NCBI GenBank assembly: GCA_022448705.1
Contig: JAKUUF010000001.1
Coordinates: forward strand, 1 to 35,126
DNA length: 35,126 nucleotides
Direction of reading: 5' to 3'
DNA from: SAR324 cluster bacterium
GTDB taxonomy: Bacteria; SAR324; NAC60-12
Shown here: piece by piece, positions 3,984 through 7,624 of the stretch
Position numbering within the stretch: the stretch's first letter is position 1
Layout: the number at the start of each line of letters is the position of its first letter
Notes under the pieces: generated by a model
Told to the model about the DNA's origin: nothing
What the model saw: only the letters and a program-made list of their open reading frames with translations
The model's database searches: none
Program-made: the position numbers and the translations under genes

Positions 3984-5336
3984 ATGACACTGGATGAACT
4001 AAAATCAATTTTTCAAAGTTATTGCTGCAAAGAGGCAGGCTCTCCAGAAAAAAAACTTTTCGGAATGGAATACGAAAATTTTGTGATGATTCCAAAAGGC
4101 CATGATAAGGAAAAAACATTTGATCCATTGCCAGTTGAAGGTGATTCCGGGGTTTTCAGGATTTTAGAAAATTTGGCTGATCTTACCAAAGAAAGCGATG
4201 ACCCGCTGGAGAAAGTGTATGAAAAAGAAATGCTCCTGGCACTTAAAAGCCCTGCAGGAACAAAAGTTACAATTGAACCCGGTGGACAGTTTGAACTCTC
4301 TGACGCTCCAAGAAATTCCCTTTCTGAGTCAAATGAATCATTGCAGAATTACCTGAAGCTGCTGAAAAACGCTGTAGCCGAATTCGAAGGGAAACTGTTA
4401 TTTCAAGGGGTTCAGCCTCTGCATGGACTTGAGAAATTGCCATTTTTCAAAAAAGGGCGATACCAGATAATGTTTCCTCACATGCTGAAAACCGGCTCCC
4501 TTGGACAGTGGATGATGAAAGCATCATCAGGAGTCCAGGTCAGTATTGATTATGCCTCGATAGAAGACATGCAGAGAAAATTTGTTTTTTTAAATCGCCT
4601 TTCCCCATTTTTAACAGCACTATTCGCTAACAGCCCATTGGTCGAAGGGGAGCCATGCGGATATCTTTCCTATCGTTCACACATTTGGAATAACACTGAT
4701 GCTTCACGGACAGGGCTTCAAACAGCATTTTTAAGCGACAAATTCCGGATTGAAGATTACATAAACTGGGCATTAGAAGCATCACCATATCACCTGATGC
4801 GTGATGGCGAAATTGTGGTTACCACCGACTGGAATTTCCAGCAACTGCTGAATGGGGAACATCCTGAGCTGACTATAACCATGGAAGACTGGGAGGATCA
4901 TTTGGGTATGCTGTTTCCGGACATCAGGATCAAAAACATTCTAGAAATAAGGGTTGTGGACAGTGTGTCCCCGAAATATGCGCTGGCAGTTCCAGCCCTG
5001 ATAGGTGCATTGCTTTATCATGAAAATGCTTTTTCATCAGTTCAATCCATGCTGATGGATTTGCCTCACGAAGAATTCAGCTCGTACAAAATGGCAGTGG
5101 CAAAGGATGCTTTGCAGGCAGATGTAAATCGAACTAATTTTGCCAGAACCGGAATGAAACTGATGGAAACAGCACTTGGAGAACTTGGTTCAGATGAAGA
5201 AAAATGGCTGCTTCCTTATTTCGACAATTACACTAAAGAAGGGAAAACGCCTGCAGACGAGACACTTGAAAAGTTCCGGAATTGCGGAGAAGATCCGGAC
5301 AAATGGCTTGATGAGGTTTTAAGTATACCTGATTAG
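3984..5336 (+). CDS. gshA: glutamate--cysteine ligase (plant/proteobacterial GCS type)
   Basis: 450 aa with GMEYENF, TIEPGGQFELSDAP, GxQP, SHIWNNTD and RIKNILEIRVVD, resembling the plant-type gamma-glutamylcysteine synthetase family. Its TAG stop (5334-5336) overlaps the stop of the convergent gene. Confidence 0.8.
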   Translation: MTLDELKSIFQSYCCKEAGSPEKKLFGMEYENFVMIPKGHDKEKTFDPLPVEGDSGVFRILENLADLTKESDDPLEKVYEKEMLLALKSPAGTKVTIEPGGQFELSDAPRNSLSESNESLQNYLKLLKNAVAEFEGKLLFQGVQPLHGLEKLPFFKKGRYQIMFPHMLKTGSLGQWMMKASSGVQVSIDYASIEDMQRKFVFLNRLSPFLTALFANSPLVEGEPCGYLSYRSHIWNNTDASRTGLQTAFLSDKFRIEDYINWALEASPYHLMRDGEIVVTTDWNFQQLLNGEHPELTITMEDWEDHLGMLFPDIRIKNILEIRVVDSVSPKYALAVPALIGALLYHENAFSSVQSMLMDLPHEEFSSYKMAVAKDALQADVNRTNFARTGMKLMETALGELGSDEEKWLLPYFDNYTKEGKTPADETLEKFRNCGEDPDKWLDEVLSIPD

Positions 5337-6388
5337 TTTTCTGCCCAGGCTGCTTGTTTAAATTCACGATTTTGCTGAATGGAAGATGGTTTTTTATCGT
5401 CGATACCCCTGATCACACGTACAGAATAATTTCCATCGGACTCTCCTGTCGCGCCCTTCAGCACTGGTGTTCCATTAATCCTGATTGTTACATTTCCATC
5501 TCTATTCTCCAAAGGCAACACCTGACCTTCTTCAAGTTTGCCATGTGTTCCACTCAAATCCGTACTGCCCAGTTCCGCAACCACGGAATATTCCATGTTA
5601 TCCAACAAATCATTAAAATGCTTTTTTACATGAGGAAAGTAATATTCCATTGATTCAGGCTCAATTAATTTCTTTTTTTCAATCGGAGTGAGCAGCGAGT
5701 CAATTCCAGTCAGCGGCAGGCAAAGCGTAAAATTTGAGTTAAATTCTCCAGAACTTAGCTTTATGCAGAAGACAAGACAATATTCGTAAGGCAGCATAAC
5801 TTTCGCCCGATAGGGATAGATAGTTACTCGATTCAGATTCAGCTCAACCTGGGCAATATTAAGCCAGCTTCTTTCAAAGTCAGTAATCATCGGGCGCACC
5901 AACGCCAGCAGGCTTTTCTGGTGTTCTCTCATCAATTGCACAAGGGAATGTCTATTCAATACCTTCCCATCGGCCATTTTGCTGCCTACACTGGTGATTT
6001 CCTTTTTTATTGTGTCGTACAAACCACCTACGAATCCTCCCTCAGTGTGCTCTTCCTCAGGATCGGCAGCAATTTCTTCAGAGTAGCTTTTTAAAACATA
6101 TACATTAAAAAAAGCGTTGTCTACAAGGAAAAGGCCTCTGCTCTGGTTATGTGTTTCAAAAATGTATATCGGCTGTTTTGAAATGGAGCTGAAAAATTCC
6201 TCAAAGCGATGCTGTTCAACGTTTTGCACTGATACATCAAACATCACCCCAATTCTTTCATACAAAGTCTCCTGAATAAGAGAAGACCATCTACGAACAA
6301 CAACATCCATTAAATGAAATCGTCCGGTTGAATACTTAGTTTCAGCCAGCTCAAAAGGTTTATATGCTATCTCGGTTTTATGTAGCAT
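5333..6388 (-). CDS. FliM-like switch-complex protein (FliM middle domain plus C-terminal SpoA/FliN-type domain) lacking the N-terminal CheY-binding peptide
   Basis: YKPFELAE...FHLMDVVVRRWSSLIQETLYERIGVMFDVSVQNVEQHRFEEFFSSISKQPIYIFE...GLFLVDNAFF follows the FliM pattern (yDF..p...L..ih.rfar.l...L...v.v....v.q..y.eF..s...P). The C-terminus VVAELGSTDL...EEGQVLPLEN..NVTIRINGTPVLKGATGESDGNYSVRVI is SpoA-like. There is no LSQxEIDALL motif at the N-terminus. Confidence 0.6.
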   Translation of the reverse strand: MLHKTEIAYKPFELAETKYSTGRFHLMDVVVRRWSSLIQETLYERIGVMFDVSVQNVEQHRFEEFFSSISKQPIYIFETHNQSRGLFLVDNAFFNVYVLKSYSEEIAADPEEEHTEGGFVGGLYDTIKKEITSVGSKMADGKVLNRHSLVQLMREHQKSLLALVRPMITDFERSWLNIAQVELNLNRVTIYPYRAKVMLPYEYCLVFCIKLSSGEFNSNFTLCLPLTGIDSLLTPIEKKKLIEPESMEYYFPHVKKHFNDLLDNMEYSVVAELGSTDLSGTHGKLEEGQVLPLENRDGNVTIRINGTPVLKGATGESDGNYSVRVIRGIDDKKPSSIQQNREFKQAAWAEN

Positions 6389-6394
6389 TATTGG

Positions 6395-7624
6395 CTAATC
6401 CTGTACAATTCCTACAATACGAATTCCAAGTTTGTCATTATTAATCTGAACAATTTCTCCACGGGCAATGGTTTTGCCGTCAATCACCAGGTCAACAGGC
6501 TCTCCAGCGGCTTTATCTAGTTCGATAATGCTTCCATAAGTTATCTGTGTAATTTCCTCACCAGTAAGTGTGGTCCGCGCTATTTCCACCACTGCTTCAT
6601 GATGTAAACTTAACAACATTTTTGAACCTAAAGAATCAACAGTTTCTTCCGAGGAATCTGGTTCTTGAGGCATCACACTCCCCACATTTTCAATTTCAGG
6701 TTCATCTTGAACTCCAGATTCAGCAGCAGATGTTTGCTCACTCATCTCTTCCGGCTCATCCGACGTTTCTTCACTTAACTGTGCTGTTACTTCATCCTCA
6801 GATTCTGTTAAATCTTCTAAATCATCAATTTCTGAATCTTCAGCTTCAGGGGCGTCACTTTCCGCTTCTTCAAGTTCAATTTCAGATGTTTCTTCTTCTA
6901 CTGTGTCATCCAGTTCTTCCATACCAAGATCCAGATCTTCCGATTCTGCTGACTCACTTTCATCACTTTCTTCCGCCACTTCAGGATCATGCAGCATATC
7001 CATAACATCTGACGAATCTGTTTCTTCTTCAGTTTGCTCACCACTCTCCGATGCATCTGATTCTGATTCTTCTGATATTTCAGTATCTGCTTCTGCTTCC
7101 GGGGAGCTTTCAGACTCTTCGGATACTTCTATATTCTCTGAATCATCACTTTCCGCAACAATTTCTTCCTCATTATCTTTATCGGATTCAGCTGCTGCAG
7201 AATCCTCCTGACTCTCTTCAGAACCATCTTCCCCTGCAGAAGCATCCTCAGTGGAATTTTCGGTGCTCTCTTCCTCACCCAATTCATCAAGTGCACTCTC
7301 TACTGAGTCACCAACTTGACCTTCAGTTTCTTCAAAAACCATATCTTCCTCTCCATCTGCAGATGCATCAGCCTTTTCCTCCTCCTGATCATCCAATTTG
7401 ATTTCATCAACAAGATCTCCTATTTCATCCATTCCAAGCTTTAAATCATCTTCCTCCGAATCTGATAAGTCATCATCAGGTTTTGAATCAGCAGCAACTG
7501 CCGAAGCTTCCCCTGTGCCATGATCATCAGCAAATAAAGATATATCTTCTGATTCTCTCAAAATGTCTGCAGGGCTGTCTTCTTCTGAGAGCTTTATATC
7601 AATTCCTTCAGACTCGTCTGCCAT
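6395..7624 (-). CDS. FliN/SpoA-domain protein with a roughly 330-aa polyacidic (D/E/S-rich) N-terminal extension
   Basis: The C-terminal 75 aa are [73 protein letters not shown]. This closely matches the FliN consensus (..v.lG.t..t..el..L..GsvieLdk.aGepvdi.vng..iArGEvV.....fGvRi..iv). The rest is low-complexity acidic sequence. A 6-nt gap to the downstream FliM-like gene implies an operon. Confidence 0.75.
   Translation of the reverse strand: [409 protein letters not shown]

What the first reader, a model, noticed from the sequence alone, without database searches (positions are those of the whole stretch)
5333..7624. Stand-alone FliN-like/FliM-like gene pair with no other flagellar or T3SS genes in 35 kb
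Seen: a two-gene minus-strand operon with a 6-nt gap. The first product ends in a textbook FliN/SpoA domain ([41 protein letters not shown]). The second follows the FliM middle-domain pattern and has its own SpoA-like C-terminus. Three features depart from canonical flagellar loci as I know them. The order is fliN-like then fliM-like, the reverse of the usual order. No fliG, fliOPQR, flhAB, motAB or che genes occur in the window. The FliM-like protein lacks the N-terminal LSQxEIDALL CheY-binding peptide. Inference: this is either a scattered flagellar switch locus, as in epsilonproteobacteria, or a switch/sorting-platform-like module used in another apparatus. Given its neighbours, it is the best candidate in this window for an undescribed system.
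Basis: partly seen in the sequence, partly recalled or inferred. Interest (0 to 1): 0.7.

Follow-up and report, generated by a model that had tools for sequence, protein, structure and literature searches.

The report
SAR324 divergent flagellar switch gene pair
This is most likely the flagellar motor switch pair (fliN then fliM) of the abundant ocean bacterial phylum SAR324: already annotated as such, but an unusual variant that lacks both signature FliM motifs and carries a very long acidic tail on FliN.

Summary
Two minus-strand genes 6 nt apart encode a 409-aa protein ending in a FliN/SpoA domain and a 351-aa FliM homologue. The FliM homologue has a middle domain and a SpoA C-terminus but no CheY-binding N-terminus. 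No other flagellar, T3SS or che gene lies in the 35 kb.

The organism is a SAR324 (Lambdaproteobacteria) bacterium. The same pair occurs throughout that phylum, almost always alone among housekeeping genes. In three loci from two Lambdaproteobacteria lineages it lies about 1 kb from flagellar-type motA-motB. Papers report scattered flagellar genes, SAR324 flagellin peptides and mostly absent che genes in SAR324.

My reading is therefore the lineage's own scattered C-ring genes, not a new apparatus (confidence about 0.75).

Three features were not described in any paper I found:
- The whole family lacks the GGXG FliG-contact loop as well as the CheY-docking peptide.
- FliN always carries a disordered polyacidic extension of roughly 200-500 residues (net charge -133 here) with conserved short motifs.
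- FliM has a conserved C-terminal tail.

I could not run a whole-genome census of flagellar genes or of other fliM/fliN copies. A non-flagellar use and an accessory-paralogue role therefore remain open at low probability.

The parts
6395..7624 (-). fliN-like gene, 409 aa, first gene of the pair
   Evidence: ORF. PF01052 scores 58.8 bits and TIGR02480 scores 59.7 bits, below its cutoff of 84. It matches T. maritima FliN 1o6a at E 1e-14.
6635..7624 (-). Polyacidic N-terminal extension of FliN-like, predicted disordered (aa 1-330). It has 140 D/E and 7 K/R, net charge -133. It carries conserved short motifs: N-terminal LSxEDSPxxIL, LxLGMDEIGxLV, DMVFxEETE, VESxLDEL, SSDVLDMLHDPE and EDLDLGMxxLDD.
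   Evidence: Composition is. AlphaFold gives pLDDT below 50 and no secondary structure. Conserved islands come from alignment A3. dN/dS is 0.32-0.47, against 0.04 for the SpoA domain. Acidic extensions that bring the whole FliN-like protein to 289-591 aa occur in every lineage examined.
6398..6634 (-). SpoA (FliN C-terminal) domain of FliN-like, aa 331-409
   Evidence: PF01052 matches residues 341-407. The alignment to T. maritima FliN, shown residue by residue, covers aa 331-407. dN/dS is 0.04.
5333..6388 (-). fliM-like gene, 351 aa, second gene of the pair. Its stop overlaps the convergent GCS2 gene by 4 nt.
   Evidence: ORF. Pfam FliM and FliMN_C hits. TIGR01397 scores 74.9 bits against a cutoff of 219.6. 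hhalign probability is 99.9%. Foldseek top hits are FliM chains of Salmonella C-ring structures. dN/dS is 0.12-0.15.
5669..6340 (-). FliM middle (CheC-like) domain, about aa 17-240
   Evidence: pLDDT is 70-90 for aa 23-100 and 150-235. TM-score normalised to the target is 0.73-0.78 against FliM middle-domain crystal structures 4fhr, 2hp7 and 7dm9.
5963..6073 (-). Clade-specific 37-aa insertion (aa 106-142, contains EGGFVGG). It sits exactly where canonical FliM has the GGXG loop that contacts FliG. The GGXG motif itself is absent.
   Evidence: Alignment A1, hhalign and a MAFFT alignment of 28 family members with 9 canonical FliM. pLDDT is below 50.
5408..5608 (-). SpoA (FliMN_C) domain of FliM-like, aa 261-327
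   Evidence: PF01052 scores 38.9 bits over residues 261-327. It aligns to Salmonella FliM C-terminal domain 8umd_C and 4yxb.
5336..5404 (-). Conserved C-terminal tail after the SpoA domain (DKKPSxIQQxREFKQxxWPxQ), not seen in canonical FliM
   Evidence: K333, P334, S335, I337 and F343 are invariant and W348 nearly invariant in A1. An aromatic-Pro C-terminal end also appears in the A4 consensus.
7625..8016 (.). Intergenic region between the pair and the divergent TPR operon; presumed promoter region of the pair
   Evidence: Alignment A5 and sequence. No convincing sigma-70 site for the minus strand was found.
7739..7783 (.). Conserved 45-bp block holding a sigma-54-type GG-N10-GC box (GGCCTGATTTTAGCA, 7758-7772). 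In this clade the box is on the + strand, pointing away from the pair. The box facing the pair is degenerate here (TGTCAT..GTGAA).
   Evidence: Near-identical boxes (TGGACTGNTTTTNGCA) lie 60-86 nt upstream of FliN-like and face it in L014, L017 and L018. L013 has TGGCACAAAGTTCGCT 21 nt upstream.

Best explanation
These are the flagellar C-ring (switch complex) genes fliN and fliM of a SAR324 / Lambdaproteobacteria bacterium. In this phylum they form a stand-alone two-gene operon placed among housekeeping genes.

Shown:
- Both proteins are real homologues under purifying selection.
- The second has the FliM middle-domain fold followed by a SpoA domain. The first ends in a FliN SpoA domain.
- The pair is conserved as a unit across the whole phylum.

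Inferred mechanism:
- As in Salmonella and Thermotoga, the SpoA domains of FliM and FliN should intertwine to build the bottom of the C-ring.
- The FliM middle domain should form the ring wall under FliG, and MotA/MotB stators should turn the rotor.

The pair differs from the textbook switch in four ways.
- FliM has no N-terminal CheY-P docking peptide, so the motor cannot be switched in the canonical way. This fits the absence of CheA/CheW/MCP genes from most SAR324 genomes.
- The GGXG loop that canonical FliM uses to grip the FliG EHPQR motif is missing from the whole family. The FliM-FliG contact must therefore be remodelled.
- FliN carries a polyacidic tail of about 200-500 residues, predicted to be disordered, with conserved short motifs. 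I guess it is a docking surface or charged brush under the ring. In the phylum's chemotactic members it might replace the lost CheY site.
- FliM has a conserved C-terminal tail.
For: Homology and fold:
- Pfam FliM and FliMN_C score above their gathering cutoffs.
- hhalign against canonical FliM gives probability 99.9% and E 1e-33 across the middle and C-terminal domains.
- Foldseek top hits are FliM chains of Salmonella C-ring cryo-EM structures (E 5e-17). They rank ahead of FliY, CheC and CheX.
- The FliN domain matches solved FliN at E 1e-14.

Functional constraint: dN/dS is 0.12-0.15 for FliM-like and 0.04 for the FliN SpoA domain.

Lineage:
- Hits are named SAR324 or Lambdaproteobacteria.
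- The pair is present and syntenic in loci L001-L008.
- It is kept as a long-FliN plus short-FliM unit in 10 more distant loci.

Direct link to the flagellar motor:
- In L142/L143 and L144 (GCA_016204605.1, Lambdaproteobacteria) the arrangement is motA-motB, then gidB on the opposite strand, then fliN-fliM.
- That MotA matches solved flagellar MotA/PomA over its full length at E 1e-44 to 1e-51, against TolQ at only 3e-4.
- That MotB has the MotB_plug and OmpA domains.

Literature:
- SAR324 flagellar genes are described as scattered rather than clustered (PMC4782131).
- A SAR324 single-cell genome improved with metagenomic reads (called an 'iSAG' in the paper) holds 23 of 32 KEGG flagellar-assembly genes (PMC4749706).
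- SAR324 flagellin spectra were detected by metaproteomics (10.1101/310524).
- Flagellar biosynthesis and motor genes were found in all clades studied, but MCP genes in only one SAR324 (10.1101/2024.01.20.576437).
- che genes are absent from most SAR324 bins.

Regulation: sigma-54-type boxes face the pair in four lineages, and rpoN is in the window.
Against: - No flagellar structural gene lies within about 10 kb of the pair in any of about 18 loci. The only exception is motAB in one subfamily.
- I could not census fliG, fliF, flhA and the other flagellar genes in any genome that carries the pair.
- Both proteins fail NCBI's equivalog cutoffs: FliM 74.9 against 219.6, and FliN 59.7 against 84.
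- Two defining FliM motifs are absent from the whole family: the CheY-binding peptide and GGXG.
- In PMC9031357, the claim that flagellar motility genes occur in all genomes rests, in the one supplementary table held as text, on che genes plus this very fliM gene. It is not independent evidence.
- MotAB-type stators also drive non-flagellar machines.
Confidence: 0.75

Rival explanations
1. Repurposed switch-like module. The long-FliN plus short-FliM pair forms a cytoplasmic platform for some apparatus other than the flagellum, for example another MotAB-driven or secretion-related machine. It lost the CheY and FliG contact motifs because it no longer works in a flagellar rotor.
For: - The whole family lacks the CheY-binding peptide and GGXG.
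- The pair is always isolated from other flagellar genes.
- It was scored present in 24 of 24 SAR324 genomes, including groups with few motility genes.
- It carries an unprecedented polyacidic extension.
Against: - No candidate partner apparatus is encoded near the pair in any lineage.
- The only functionally related neighbours ever seen are flagellar-type MotA/MotB with the plug and peptidoglycan-binding domains.
- SAR324 is reported to make flagellin and to encode flagellar biosynthesis genes. All known flagella need FliM and FliN, and no other candidate was seen.
- The pair has no match in the PADLOC defence-system library.
Confidence: 0.13
2. Accessory paralogue. SAR324 also has a canonical fliM/fliN elsewhere. 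This pair would then be a second, specialised switch component, comparable to FliY beside FliN in Helicobacter or the duplicated motor sets of Rhodobacter and Vibrio.
For: - Scores are below the equivalog cutoffs.
- I could not search whole genomes.
- Other bacteria do carry extra switch proteins (established knowledge; PMC8809382 is listed).
Against: - Every SAR324- or Lambdaproteobacteria-named protein returned by three database searches belongs to this divergent family.
- The FliN-domain search found no SAR324-named protein and nothing closer than about 50% identity outside the orthologues. Its sensitivity was low.
- The family spans the phylum with three deep subfamilies. That pattern fits vertical inheritance of the only copy.
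Confidence: 0.09
3. Injectisome (non-flagellar T3SS) sorting-platform protein SctQ, or a CheC/FliY-type CheY-P phosphatase.
For: There are weak hits to SpaO/YscQ models (13-22 bits) and to the FliY C-terminus. The CheC-like fold is shared with FliM.
Against: - SctQ models score far below their cutoff (TIGR02551 at 13.4 and 21.9 bits against 100.8).
- No T3SS gene is present in the window or in any locus.
- Foldseek ranks FliM structures (E 1e-17 to 1e-9) well above FliY, CheC and CheX (E 1e-6 to 1e-2).
- The FliN-like N-terminus is predicted to be disordered, not a CheC domain.
Confidence: 0.02

Closest known systems
Canonical FliM/FliN switch complex (Salmonella, E. coli, Thermotoga maritima; PDB 8umd, 4yxb, 4fhr, 1o6a)
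   Same: The domain plan matches: a FliM middle domain plus a C-terminal SpoA domain, and FliN ending in a SpoA domain close to T. maritima FliN (phmmer E 1e-14). The two genes are adjacent and tightly coupled. The predicted fold matches FliM in solved C-rings.
   Different: - No N-terminal CheY-P binding peptide, no GGXG loop and no REFTxIE motif.
- An extra conserved C-terminal tail on FliM.
- FliN is 409 aa (289-591 aa in relatives) rather than about 100-150 aa, because of a polyacidic region predicted to be disordered.
- The gene order is fliN then fliM.
- The genes are not in a fliL-fliM-fliN-fliOPQR operon.
- Scores are below the TIGR01397 and TIGR02480 cutoffs.
FliY of Bacillus subtilis / Thermotoga maritima (long FliN-family protein; PDB 4hyn)
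   Same: It is a FliN-family protein with a long N-terminal extension in front of the SpoA domain. The C-terminus hits the FliY model NF005995 at 60 bits.
   Different: The FliY extension is a folded CheC-like phosphatase domain preceded by a CheY-binding peptide. Here the extension is polyacidic and predicted to be disordered, with no CheC domain. No LSQxEIDALL-type peptide is conserved across lineages.
Scattered flagellar genes of Campylobacterota (e.g. Helicobacter pylori)
   Same: Flagellar genes are dispersed in small units among housekeeping genes, and sigma-54-type promoters occur on some flagellar genes. This is established knowledge. SAR324 scattering is stated in PMC4782131.
   Different: Helicobacter FliM keeps the CheY-binding peptide and the GGXG-type contact with FliG (4fq0). 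It also has FliY in addition to FliN.

Membership tests
FliM (flagellar motor switch protein; PF02154 / TIGR01397) | Pfam FliM domain above the gathering score | tested here: met
   PF02154 scores 34.8 bits against a cutoff of 27.
FliM (flagellar motor switch protein; PF02154 / TIGR01397) | NCBIfam equivalog TIGR01397 above its curated cutoff | tested here: not met
   The score is 74.9 bits against 219.6. Relatives score 53-108 bits, while a canonical FliM (P0189) scores 259.7.
FliM (flagellar motor switch protein; PF02154 / TIGR01397) | CheC-like middle-domain fold plus a C-terminal SpoA domain | tested here: met
   hhalign covers canonical profile positions 44-344. Foldseek gives E 5e-17 to full-length FliM and TM-score (target-normalised) 0.73-0.78 to middle-domain crystal structures. 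PF01052 scores 38.9 bits.
FliM (flagellar motor switch protein; PF02154 / TIGR01397) | N-terminal CheY-P binding peptide (LSQxEIDALL) | tested here: not met
   The protein starts at the position equivalent to canonical residue about 44. All 28 family representatives lack the peptide, while canonical FliMs in the same hit list have it.
FliM (flagellar motor switch protein; PF02154 / TIGR01397) | GGXG loop that contacts the FliG EHPQR motif (role as reviewed in PMC7355467) | tested here: not met
   G133 and G134 are nearly invariant in canonical alignment A2. The aligned positions in all short-family members are non-glycine. The window clade has a 37-aa insertion at that point.
FliM (flagellar motor switch protein; PF02154 / TIGR01397) | Genomic or regulatory association with other flagellar genes | tested here: inconclusive
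   There is none in the window or in most loci. motA-motB lies about 1 kb away in L142/L143/L144. Sigma-54-type boxes occur upstream in four lineages. A genome-wide census was not possible.
FliM (flagellar motor switch protein; PF02154 / TIGR01397) | Assembles under FliG in the C-ring and is required for flagellation | not testable with these tools
   This needs cryo-tomography, localisation or genetics.
FliN (PF01052 / TIGR02480) | SpoA / FliN C-terminal domain | tested here: met
   PF01052 scores 58.8 bits against 23.8. The match to 1o6a is E 1e-14, with the alignment shown.
FliN (PF01052 / TIGR02480) | NCBIfam equivalog-domain TIGR02480 above its cutoff | tested here: not met
   The score is 59.7 bits against 84.05.
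FliN (PF01052 / TIGR02480) | Small protein (about 100-150 aa) with only a short N-terminal region. This size range is from my own knowledge. Salmonella FliN is 137 aa (8umd_D). | tested here: not met
   The protein is 409 aa, of which 330 are polyacidic and predicted to be disordered. Orthologues are 289-591 aa.
FliY (CheC-like phosphatase fused to SpoA) | Folded CheC-like domain and CheY-binding peptide N-terminal to the SpoA domain | tested here: not met
   Pfam and NCBIfam find no CheC-type domain. The FliY model matches only residues 270-408. The N-terminal region has pLDDT below 50 and no secondary structure.
SctQ (injectisome sorting platform) | SctQ profile above its cutoff and neighbouring T3SS genes | tested here: not met
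   TIGR02551 scores 13.4 and 21.9 bits against 100.8. No T3SS family appears in the window or in any related locus.

The most novel reading that the evidence does not exclude
This pair, found across the SAR324 phylum, might not be a conventional switch at all. Having lost both the CheY-docking peptide and the FliG-gripping GGXG loop, and having gained a tail of about -130 net charge on every FliN, it could be one of two things. It could be a structurally new kind of C-ring, with the polyacidic tail as the signalling or export docking hub. Or it could be a rotor-like cytoplasmic platform that serves a non-flagellar machine in one of the ocean's most abundant bacterial groups.
Probability: 0.13. 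Interest if true: 0.75.

Novelty: new variant of a known kind. Interest (0 to 1): 0.38.

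Why it matters
SAR324 is among the most abundant bacterial lineages in the dark ocean. Whether and how it swims bears on particle colonisation and carbon turnover. At least one comparative study scored motility in SAR324 largely from this very fliM gene (PMC9031357). 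It is therefore useful to know that the gene is a divergent FliM lacking the CheY-binding site.

For motor biology, the family is a natural experiment. It is a FliM family found across a whole phylum without the two motifs thought central to switching and FliG coupling. It is paired with a FliN carrying a huge polyacidic tail. If the flagellar assignment holds, it shows how much of the textbook switch is dispensable, and it points to a different FliM-FliG interface and possibly a new CheY docking site.

It is not a new kind of system.

Tried and rejected
- **Chromosome walking from the window ends.** I looked up the end genes, but the contigs that hold them are only 6-7 kb.
- **Regulon hunt.** I scanned the metagenome collection for the sigma-54-like box TGGACTGNTTTTNGCA. 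It returned 120 chance matches from unrelated organisms, none with the pair.
- **Idea that the CheY-binding peptide moved to the FliN N-terminus** ([11 protein letters not shown] compared with LSQxEIDALL). The motif is confined to one subclade. Other lineages begin with DLDLD, DFDFD or FSLDD repeats instead. I rejected it as a general explanation.
- **Sigma-28 or sigma-70 reading of the conserved 45-bp block for the minus strand.** The spacing and hexamers fit poorly. This is unresolved.
- **Taxonomy of distant loci.** Cluster names gave nothing. A SAR324 16S probe sequence recalled from memory gave 2 mismatches in L142 and no match within 3 mismatches in L015, which is uninformative.
- **Supplement searches** for per-genome fliG/fliM/fliN tables found nothing usable.
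- **Search for SAR324 FliN paralogues** with the SpoA domain returned only 47 candidates. None was named SAR324. The close hits look like orthologues and the rest are about 50% identical or less. Sensitivity was low.
- **PADLOC defence library.** No hit for the pair.
- **Rfam.** The only match in the window is a tRNA; nothing matches the intergenic region.

Full report
**1. What is in the sequence**

ORF 6395..7624 encodes 409 aa and ORF 5333..6388 encodes 351 aa. They are separated by 6 nt, and an AGGA lies 10-13 nt before the second start codon. The stop of the second gene overlaps the stop of a convergent glutamate-cysteine ligase gene by 4 nt.

The first product matches Pfam FliMN_C only at residues 341-407 (58.8 bits, cutoff 23.8). 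That region aligns closely to solved T. maritima FliN at E 1e-14. The second product matches Pfam FliM (34.8 bits, cutoff 27) and FliMN_C (38.9 bits). Both fall well below NCBI's equivalog cutoffs: TIGR01397 at 74.9 against 219.6, and TIGR02480 at 59.7 against 84.

I scanned 30 further ORFs of the window with Pfam. The hits were:
- M50 peptidase, GCS2, a 608-aa TPR protein, RelA/SpoT, GDPD, MurG, a purine nucleoside phosphorylase-family protein (PNP_UDP_1), ArgRS and a dGTPase-like protein
- GcpE, an LptD-like protein, CoA-transferase, MaoC, CcmB, an ABC ATPase, RpoN and PspA

Eight ORFs had no hit. None was a flagellar, T3SS or chemotaxis family.

**2. Whose genes these are**

Database hits to the 351-aa protein are named SAR324 cluster bacterium, Deltaproteobacteria bacterium or Candidatus Lambdaproteobacteria. 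Eight genome loci were recovered from SAR324 MAGs. A tblastn of the window's genes against those loci shows that the neighbourhood is conserved: GCS2, then fliM-like and fliN-like, then the divergent TPR gene, a 219-aa protein, RelA/SpoT, GDPD, MurG and the PNP-family gene. FliM-like identity across these loci runs from 92% down to 57%. In two of the loci (L004, L006) the TPR side is not recovered.

The FliM-like protein evolves faster than its neighbours (57% against 72-79% identity). It is nevertheless under purifying selection. dN/dS is 0.12-0.15 for FliM-like, 0.04 for the FliN SpoA domain and 0.32-0.47 for the FliN N-terminal region.

**3. How far the family reaches**

An exhaustive phmmer search of 1.84 billion representative proteins found only 127 hits at E below 1e-3. 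The nearest are FliM-like proteins of 294-333 aa that fall into three subfamilies. Canonical FliMs appear only at about 20-28% identity. Named members of two subfamilies are SAR324 or Lambdaproteobacteria.

I inspected the gene neighbourhood of ten more distant members:
- L013, L014, L015, L016, L017, L018
- L140, L142, L143, L144

In every case the FliM-like gene is immediately preceded by a FliN-family gene encoding a long acidic protein of 289-591 aa. This was checked by Pfam or NCBIfam, or by reading the C-terminal sequence. It was not checked for the 559-aa upstream gene of L140, which has no Pfam hit on record. The pair is otherwise surrounded by unrelated housekeeping genes. The conserved unit is therefore the pair, not the TPR operon.

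**4. Link to the flagellum**

The decisive context came from L142/L143 and L144; L144 is from GCA_016204605.1, Candidatus Lambdaproteobacteria. There the order is motA-motB, then gidB on the opposite strand, then fliN-like and fliM-like.
- The 271-aa MotA matches NCBIfam MotP/PomA/MotA models over its full length (E 2e-60), against TolQ at 3e-4.
- It also matches solved flagellar stator proteins (6ysf, 8ucs, 8bri) at E 1e-44 to 1e-51.
- The 212-aa MotB has the MotB_plug and OmpA domains and matches MotD/MotS/MotB at E 1e-46 to 1e-51.

The literature agrees with a flagellated lineage whose flagellar genes are dispersed.
- PMC4782131 states that flagellar genes are scattered throughout SAR324 genomes. 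Its Table S4 shows CheA/CheW/MCP in only two of ten genomes.
- PMC4749706 counts 23 of 32 KEGG flagellar-assembly genes in a SAR324 single-cell genome improved with metagenomic reads.
- A metaproteome preprint reports frequent SAR324 flagellin spectra.
- Another preprint finds flagellar biosynthesis and motor genes in all clades studied, but MCP genes in only one SAR324.

One caution applies. In PMC9031357, the statement that flagellar motility genes occur in all genomes rests, in the one supplementary table held as text, on che genes plus this fliM gene. It is not independent evidence.

**5. How the proteins differ from the textbook switch**

A profile-profile alignment of 24 SAR324 FliM-likes (A1) against 22 canonical FliMs (A2) gives probability 99.9% and E 1e-33. 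It covers canonical positions 44-344, which is the whole middle domain plus the SpoA domain but not the N-terminal peptide. An AlphaFold model has a confident middle domain (pLDDT 70-90). Its best PDB matches are FliM chains of Salmonella C-ring cryo-EM structures (E 5e-17), then FliM middle-domain crystal structures (TM-score 0.73-0.78), ahead of FliY, CheC and CheX.

Four departures hold for the whole family:
- **No CheY-binding peptide.** None of the 28 representatives has the LSQxEIDALL peptide, which canonical FliMs in the same hit list carry.
- **No GGXG loop.** This loop, and the REFTxIE motif after it, are replaced by unrelated residues in all 28. The loop's role in gripping the FliG EHPQR motif is reviewed in PMC7355467. 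In the window's own clade, a 37-aa insertion predicted to be disordered (aa 106-142, including EGGFVGG) sits at exactly that point.
- **A conserved C-terminal tail.** DKKPSxIQQxREFKQxxWPxQ follows the SpoA domain.
- **A polyacidic FliN extension.** Here it is 330 residues with 140 D/E and 7 K/R, net charge -133. AlphaFold predicts no structure for it. It nevertheless contains islands that are invariant across SAR324 orthologues of about 50% identity: the N-terminal LSxEDSPxxIL, LxLGMDEIGxLV, DMVFxEETE, VESxLDEL, SSDVLDMLHDPE and EDLDLGMxxLDD. Other lineages have different acidic-hydrophobic repeats such as DLDLD, DFDFD and FSLDD.

**6. Regulation**

In L014, L017 and L018 a near-identical GG-N10-GC box (TGGACTGNTTTTNGCA) lies 60-86 nt upstream of the FliN-like start and faces it. 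L013 has TGGCACAAAGTTCGCT 21 nt upstream. These fit sigma-54 promoters, and the window encodes RpoN.

In the window's clade the same-looking box (7758-7772) sits inside a conserved 45-bp block but points toward the TPR operon. The box facing the pair is degenerate. The pair's promoter in this clade is unresolved. Sigma-54 dependence fits a flagellar regulon in many bacteria but is not specific to flagella.

**7. Interpretation**

The simplest account is that these are the SAR324 phylum's own fliN and fliM. They would be inherited vertically as an isolated bicistron in a lineage whose flagellar genes are scattered.

By analogy with solved C-rings, the two SpoA domains should build the ring base and the FliM middle domain the wall under FliG. 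Loss of the CheY-docking peptide matches the absence of a chemotaxis pathway from most SAR324. The motor would then run without canonical switching.

Some lineages of the phylum have MCP genes close to the pair (L013, L017) and che genes, yet carry the same short FliM. In those lineages CheY must act elsewhere. The conserved motifs in the disordered FliN region or the FliM tail are candidates, but this is speculation. Loss of GGXG implies a remodelled FliM-FliG interface, which I could not test because no SAR324 FliG sequence was obtainable.

**8. What remains open**

I could not search any whole genome. Three things are therefore inferred from the literature and from negative searches, not shown:
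- a full flagellar gene set in the same genome
- the absence of a second, canonical fliM/fliN
- the alternative of a non-flagellar use

I give the flagellar C-ring reading about 0.75, a repurposed module about 0.13, an accessory paralogue about 0.09, and SctQ or CheC-type readings about 0.02.

**9. Novelty and verdict**

Public annotation already calls these genes 'FliM/FliN family flagellar motor switch protein'. The finding is therefore not a new system. No paper I could find describes the family's distinctive anatomy: no CheY peptide, no GGXG, a polyacidic FliN and a stand-alone operon across a phylum. I rate it a new variant of a known kind, of moderate interest.

Noticed in passing
window 7739-7783 (box at 7758-7772, + strand): A 45-bp intergenic block is conserved across SAR324 loci whose flanks barely align. 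It holds a sigma-54-type GG-N10-GC box pointing toward the TPR operon, back-to-back with a degenerate box pointing toward the fliN-like gene. Near-identical boxes face the fliN-like gene in L014, L017 and L018.
   Followed up: partly
window 7855-7948 (sigma-70-like site at 7915-7943, + strand): A second strongly conserved intergenic block lies upstream of the TPR gene. It contains a good sigma-70-type promoter match (TTTACA-17-TATGAT, 10 of 12). The sequence between it and the sigma-54-like box is also conserved, which may indicate a regulatory leader.
   Followed up: no
window 34650-35126 (in-frame stops at 35013-35015 and 35094-35096): The pspA gene after rpoN has two in-frame stop codons. 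A near-identical strain (L012) has Tyr and Glu at those positions and an intact PspA reading frame of at least 222 aa that runs to the contig end. This is either a pseudogene or sequencing error in the window.
   Followed up: partly
L142 11359-17030; L015 11453-17694; gidB in L015, L016, L017, L140, L142, L144: In several deep lineages of the phylum the fliN-fliM pair is flanked upstream by divergent gidB (rsmG, a 16S rRNA methyltransferase). In L142 and L015 a complete rRNA operon (16S, two tRNAs, 23S, 5S) begins only about 420-470 nt downstream. This is an odd, recurrent placement.
   Followed up: partly
L140 11106-11399 (and L141): A small ComFB-domain gene (PF10719) lies directly downstream of the fliM-like gene in one subfamily. 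From my own knowledge, ComFB proteins have been described as cyclic-dinucleotide receptors, so it could be a motor regulator.
   Followed up: no
L013 1-921 (L139 14028-16175); L017 10415-12685: Methyl-accepting chemotaxis protein genes lie 1.4-9 kb from the pair in two lineages. Some members of the phylum are therefore chemotactic despite having a FliM without the CheY-docking peptide.
   Followed up: no
L007 8636-9992; L005 8574-9992: In L007 the fliN-like gene is split by a frameshift and contains an expanded (SED)n repeat. In L005 it contains a run of N. The acidic low-complexity region seems prone to assembly error or real length variation; orthologue lengths range from 289 to 591 aa.
   Followed up: no
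window 396-2882 (-): Three genes have no Pfam hit. Two of them are conserved next to this locus in most SAR324 loci; the 250-aa one was recovered only in L002. They are a 250-aa polytopic membrane protein, a 312-aa protein with a signal-like N-terminus, and a 200-aa protein. None looks flagellar.
   Followed up: partly
window 9852-10511 (+): A 219-aa protein with no Pfam hit directly follows the TPR gene. It is co-conserved with the TPR gene in SAR324 loci (69-81% identity) and has one predicted membrane helix. Its function is unknown.
   Followed up: no
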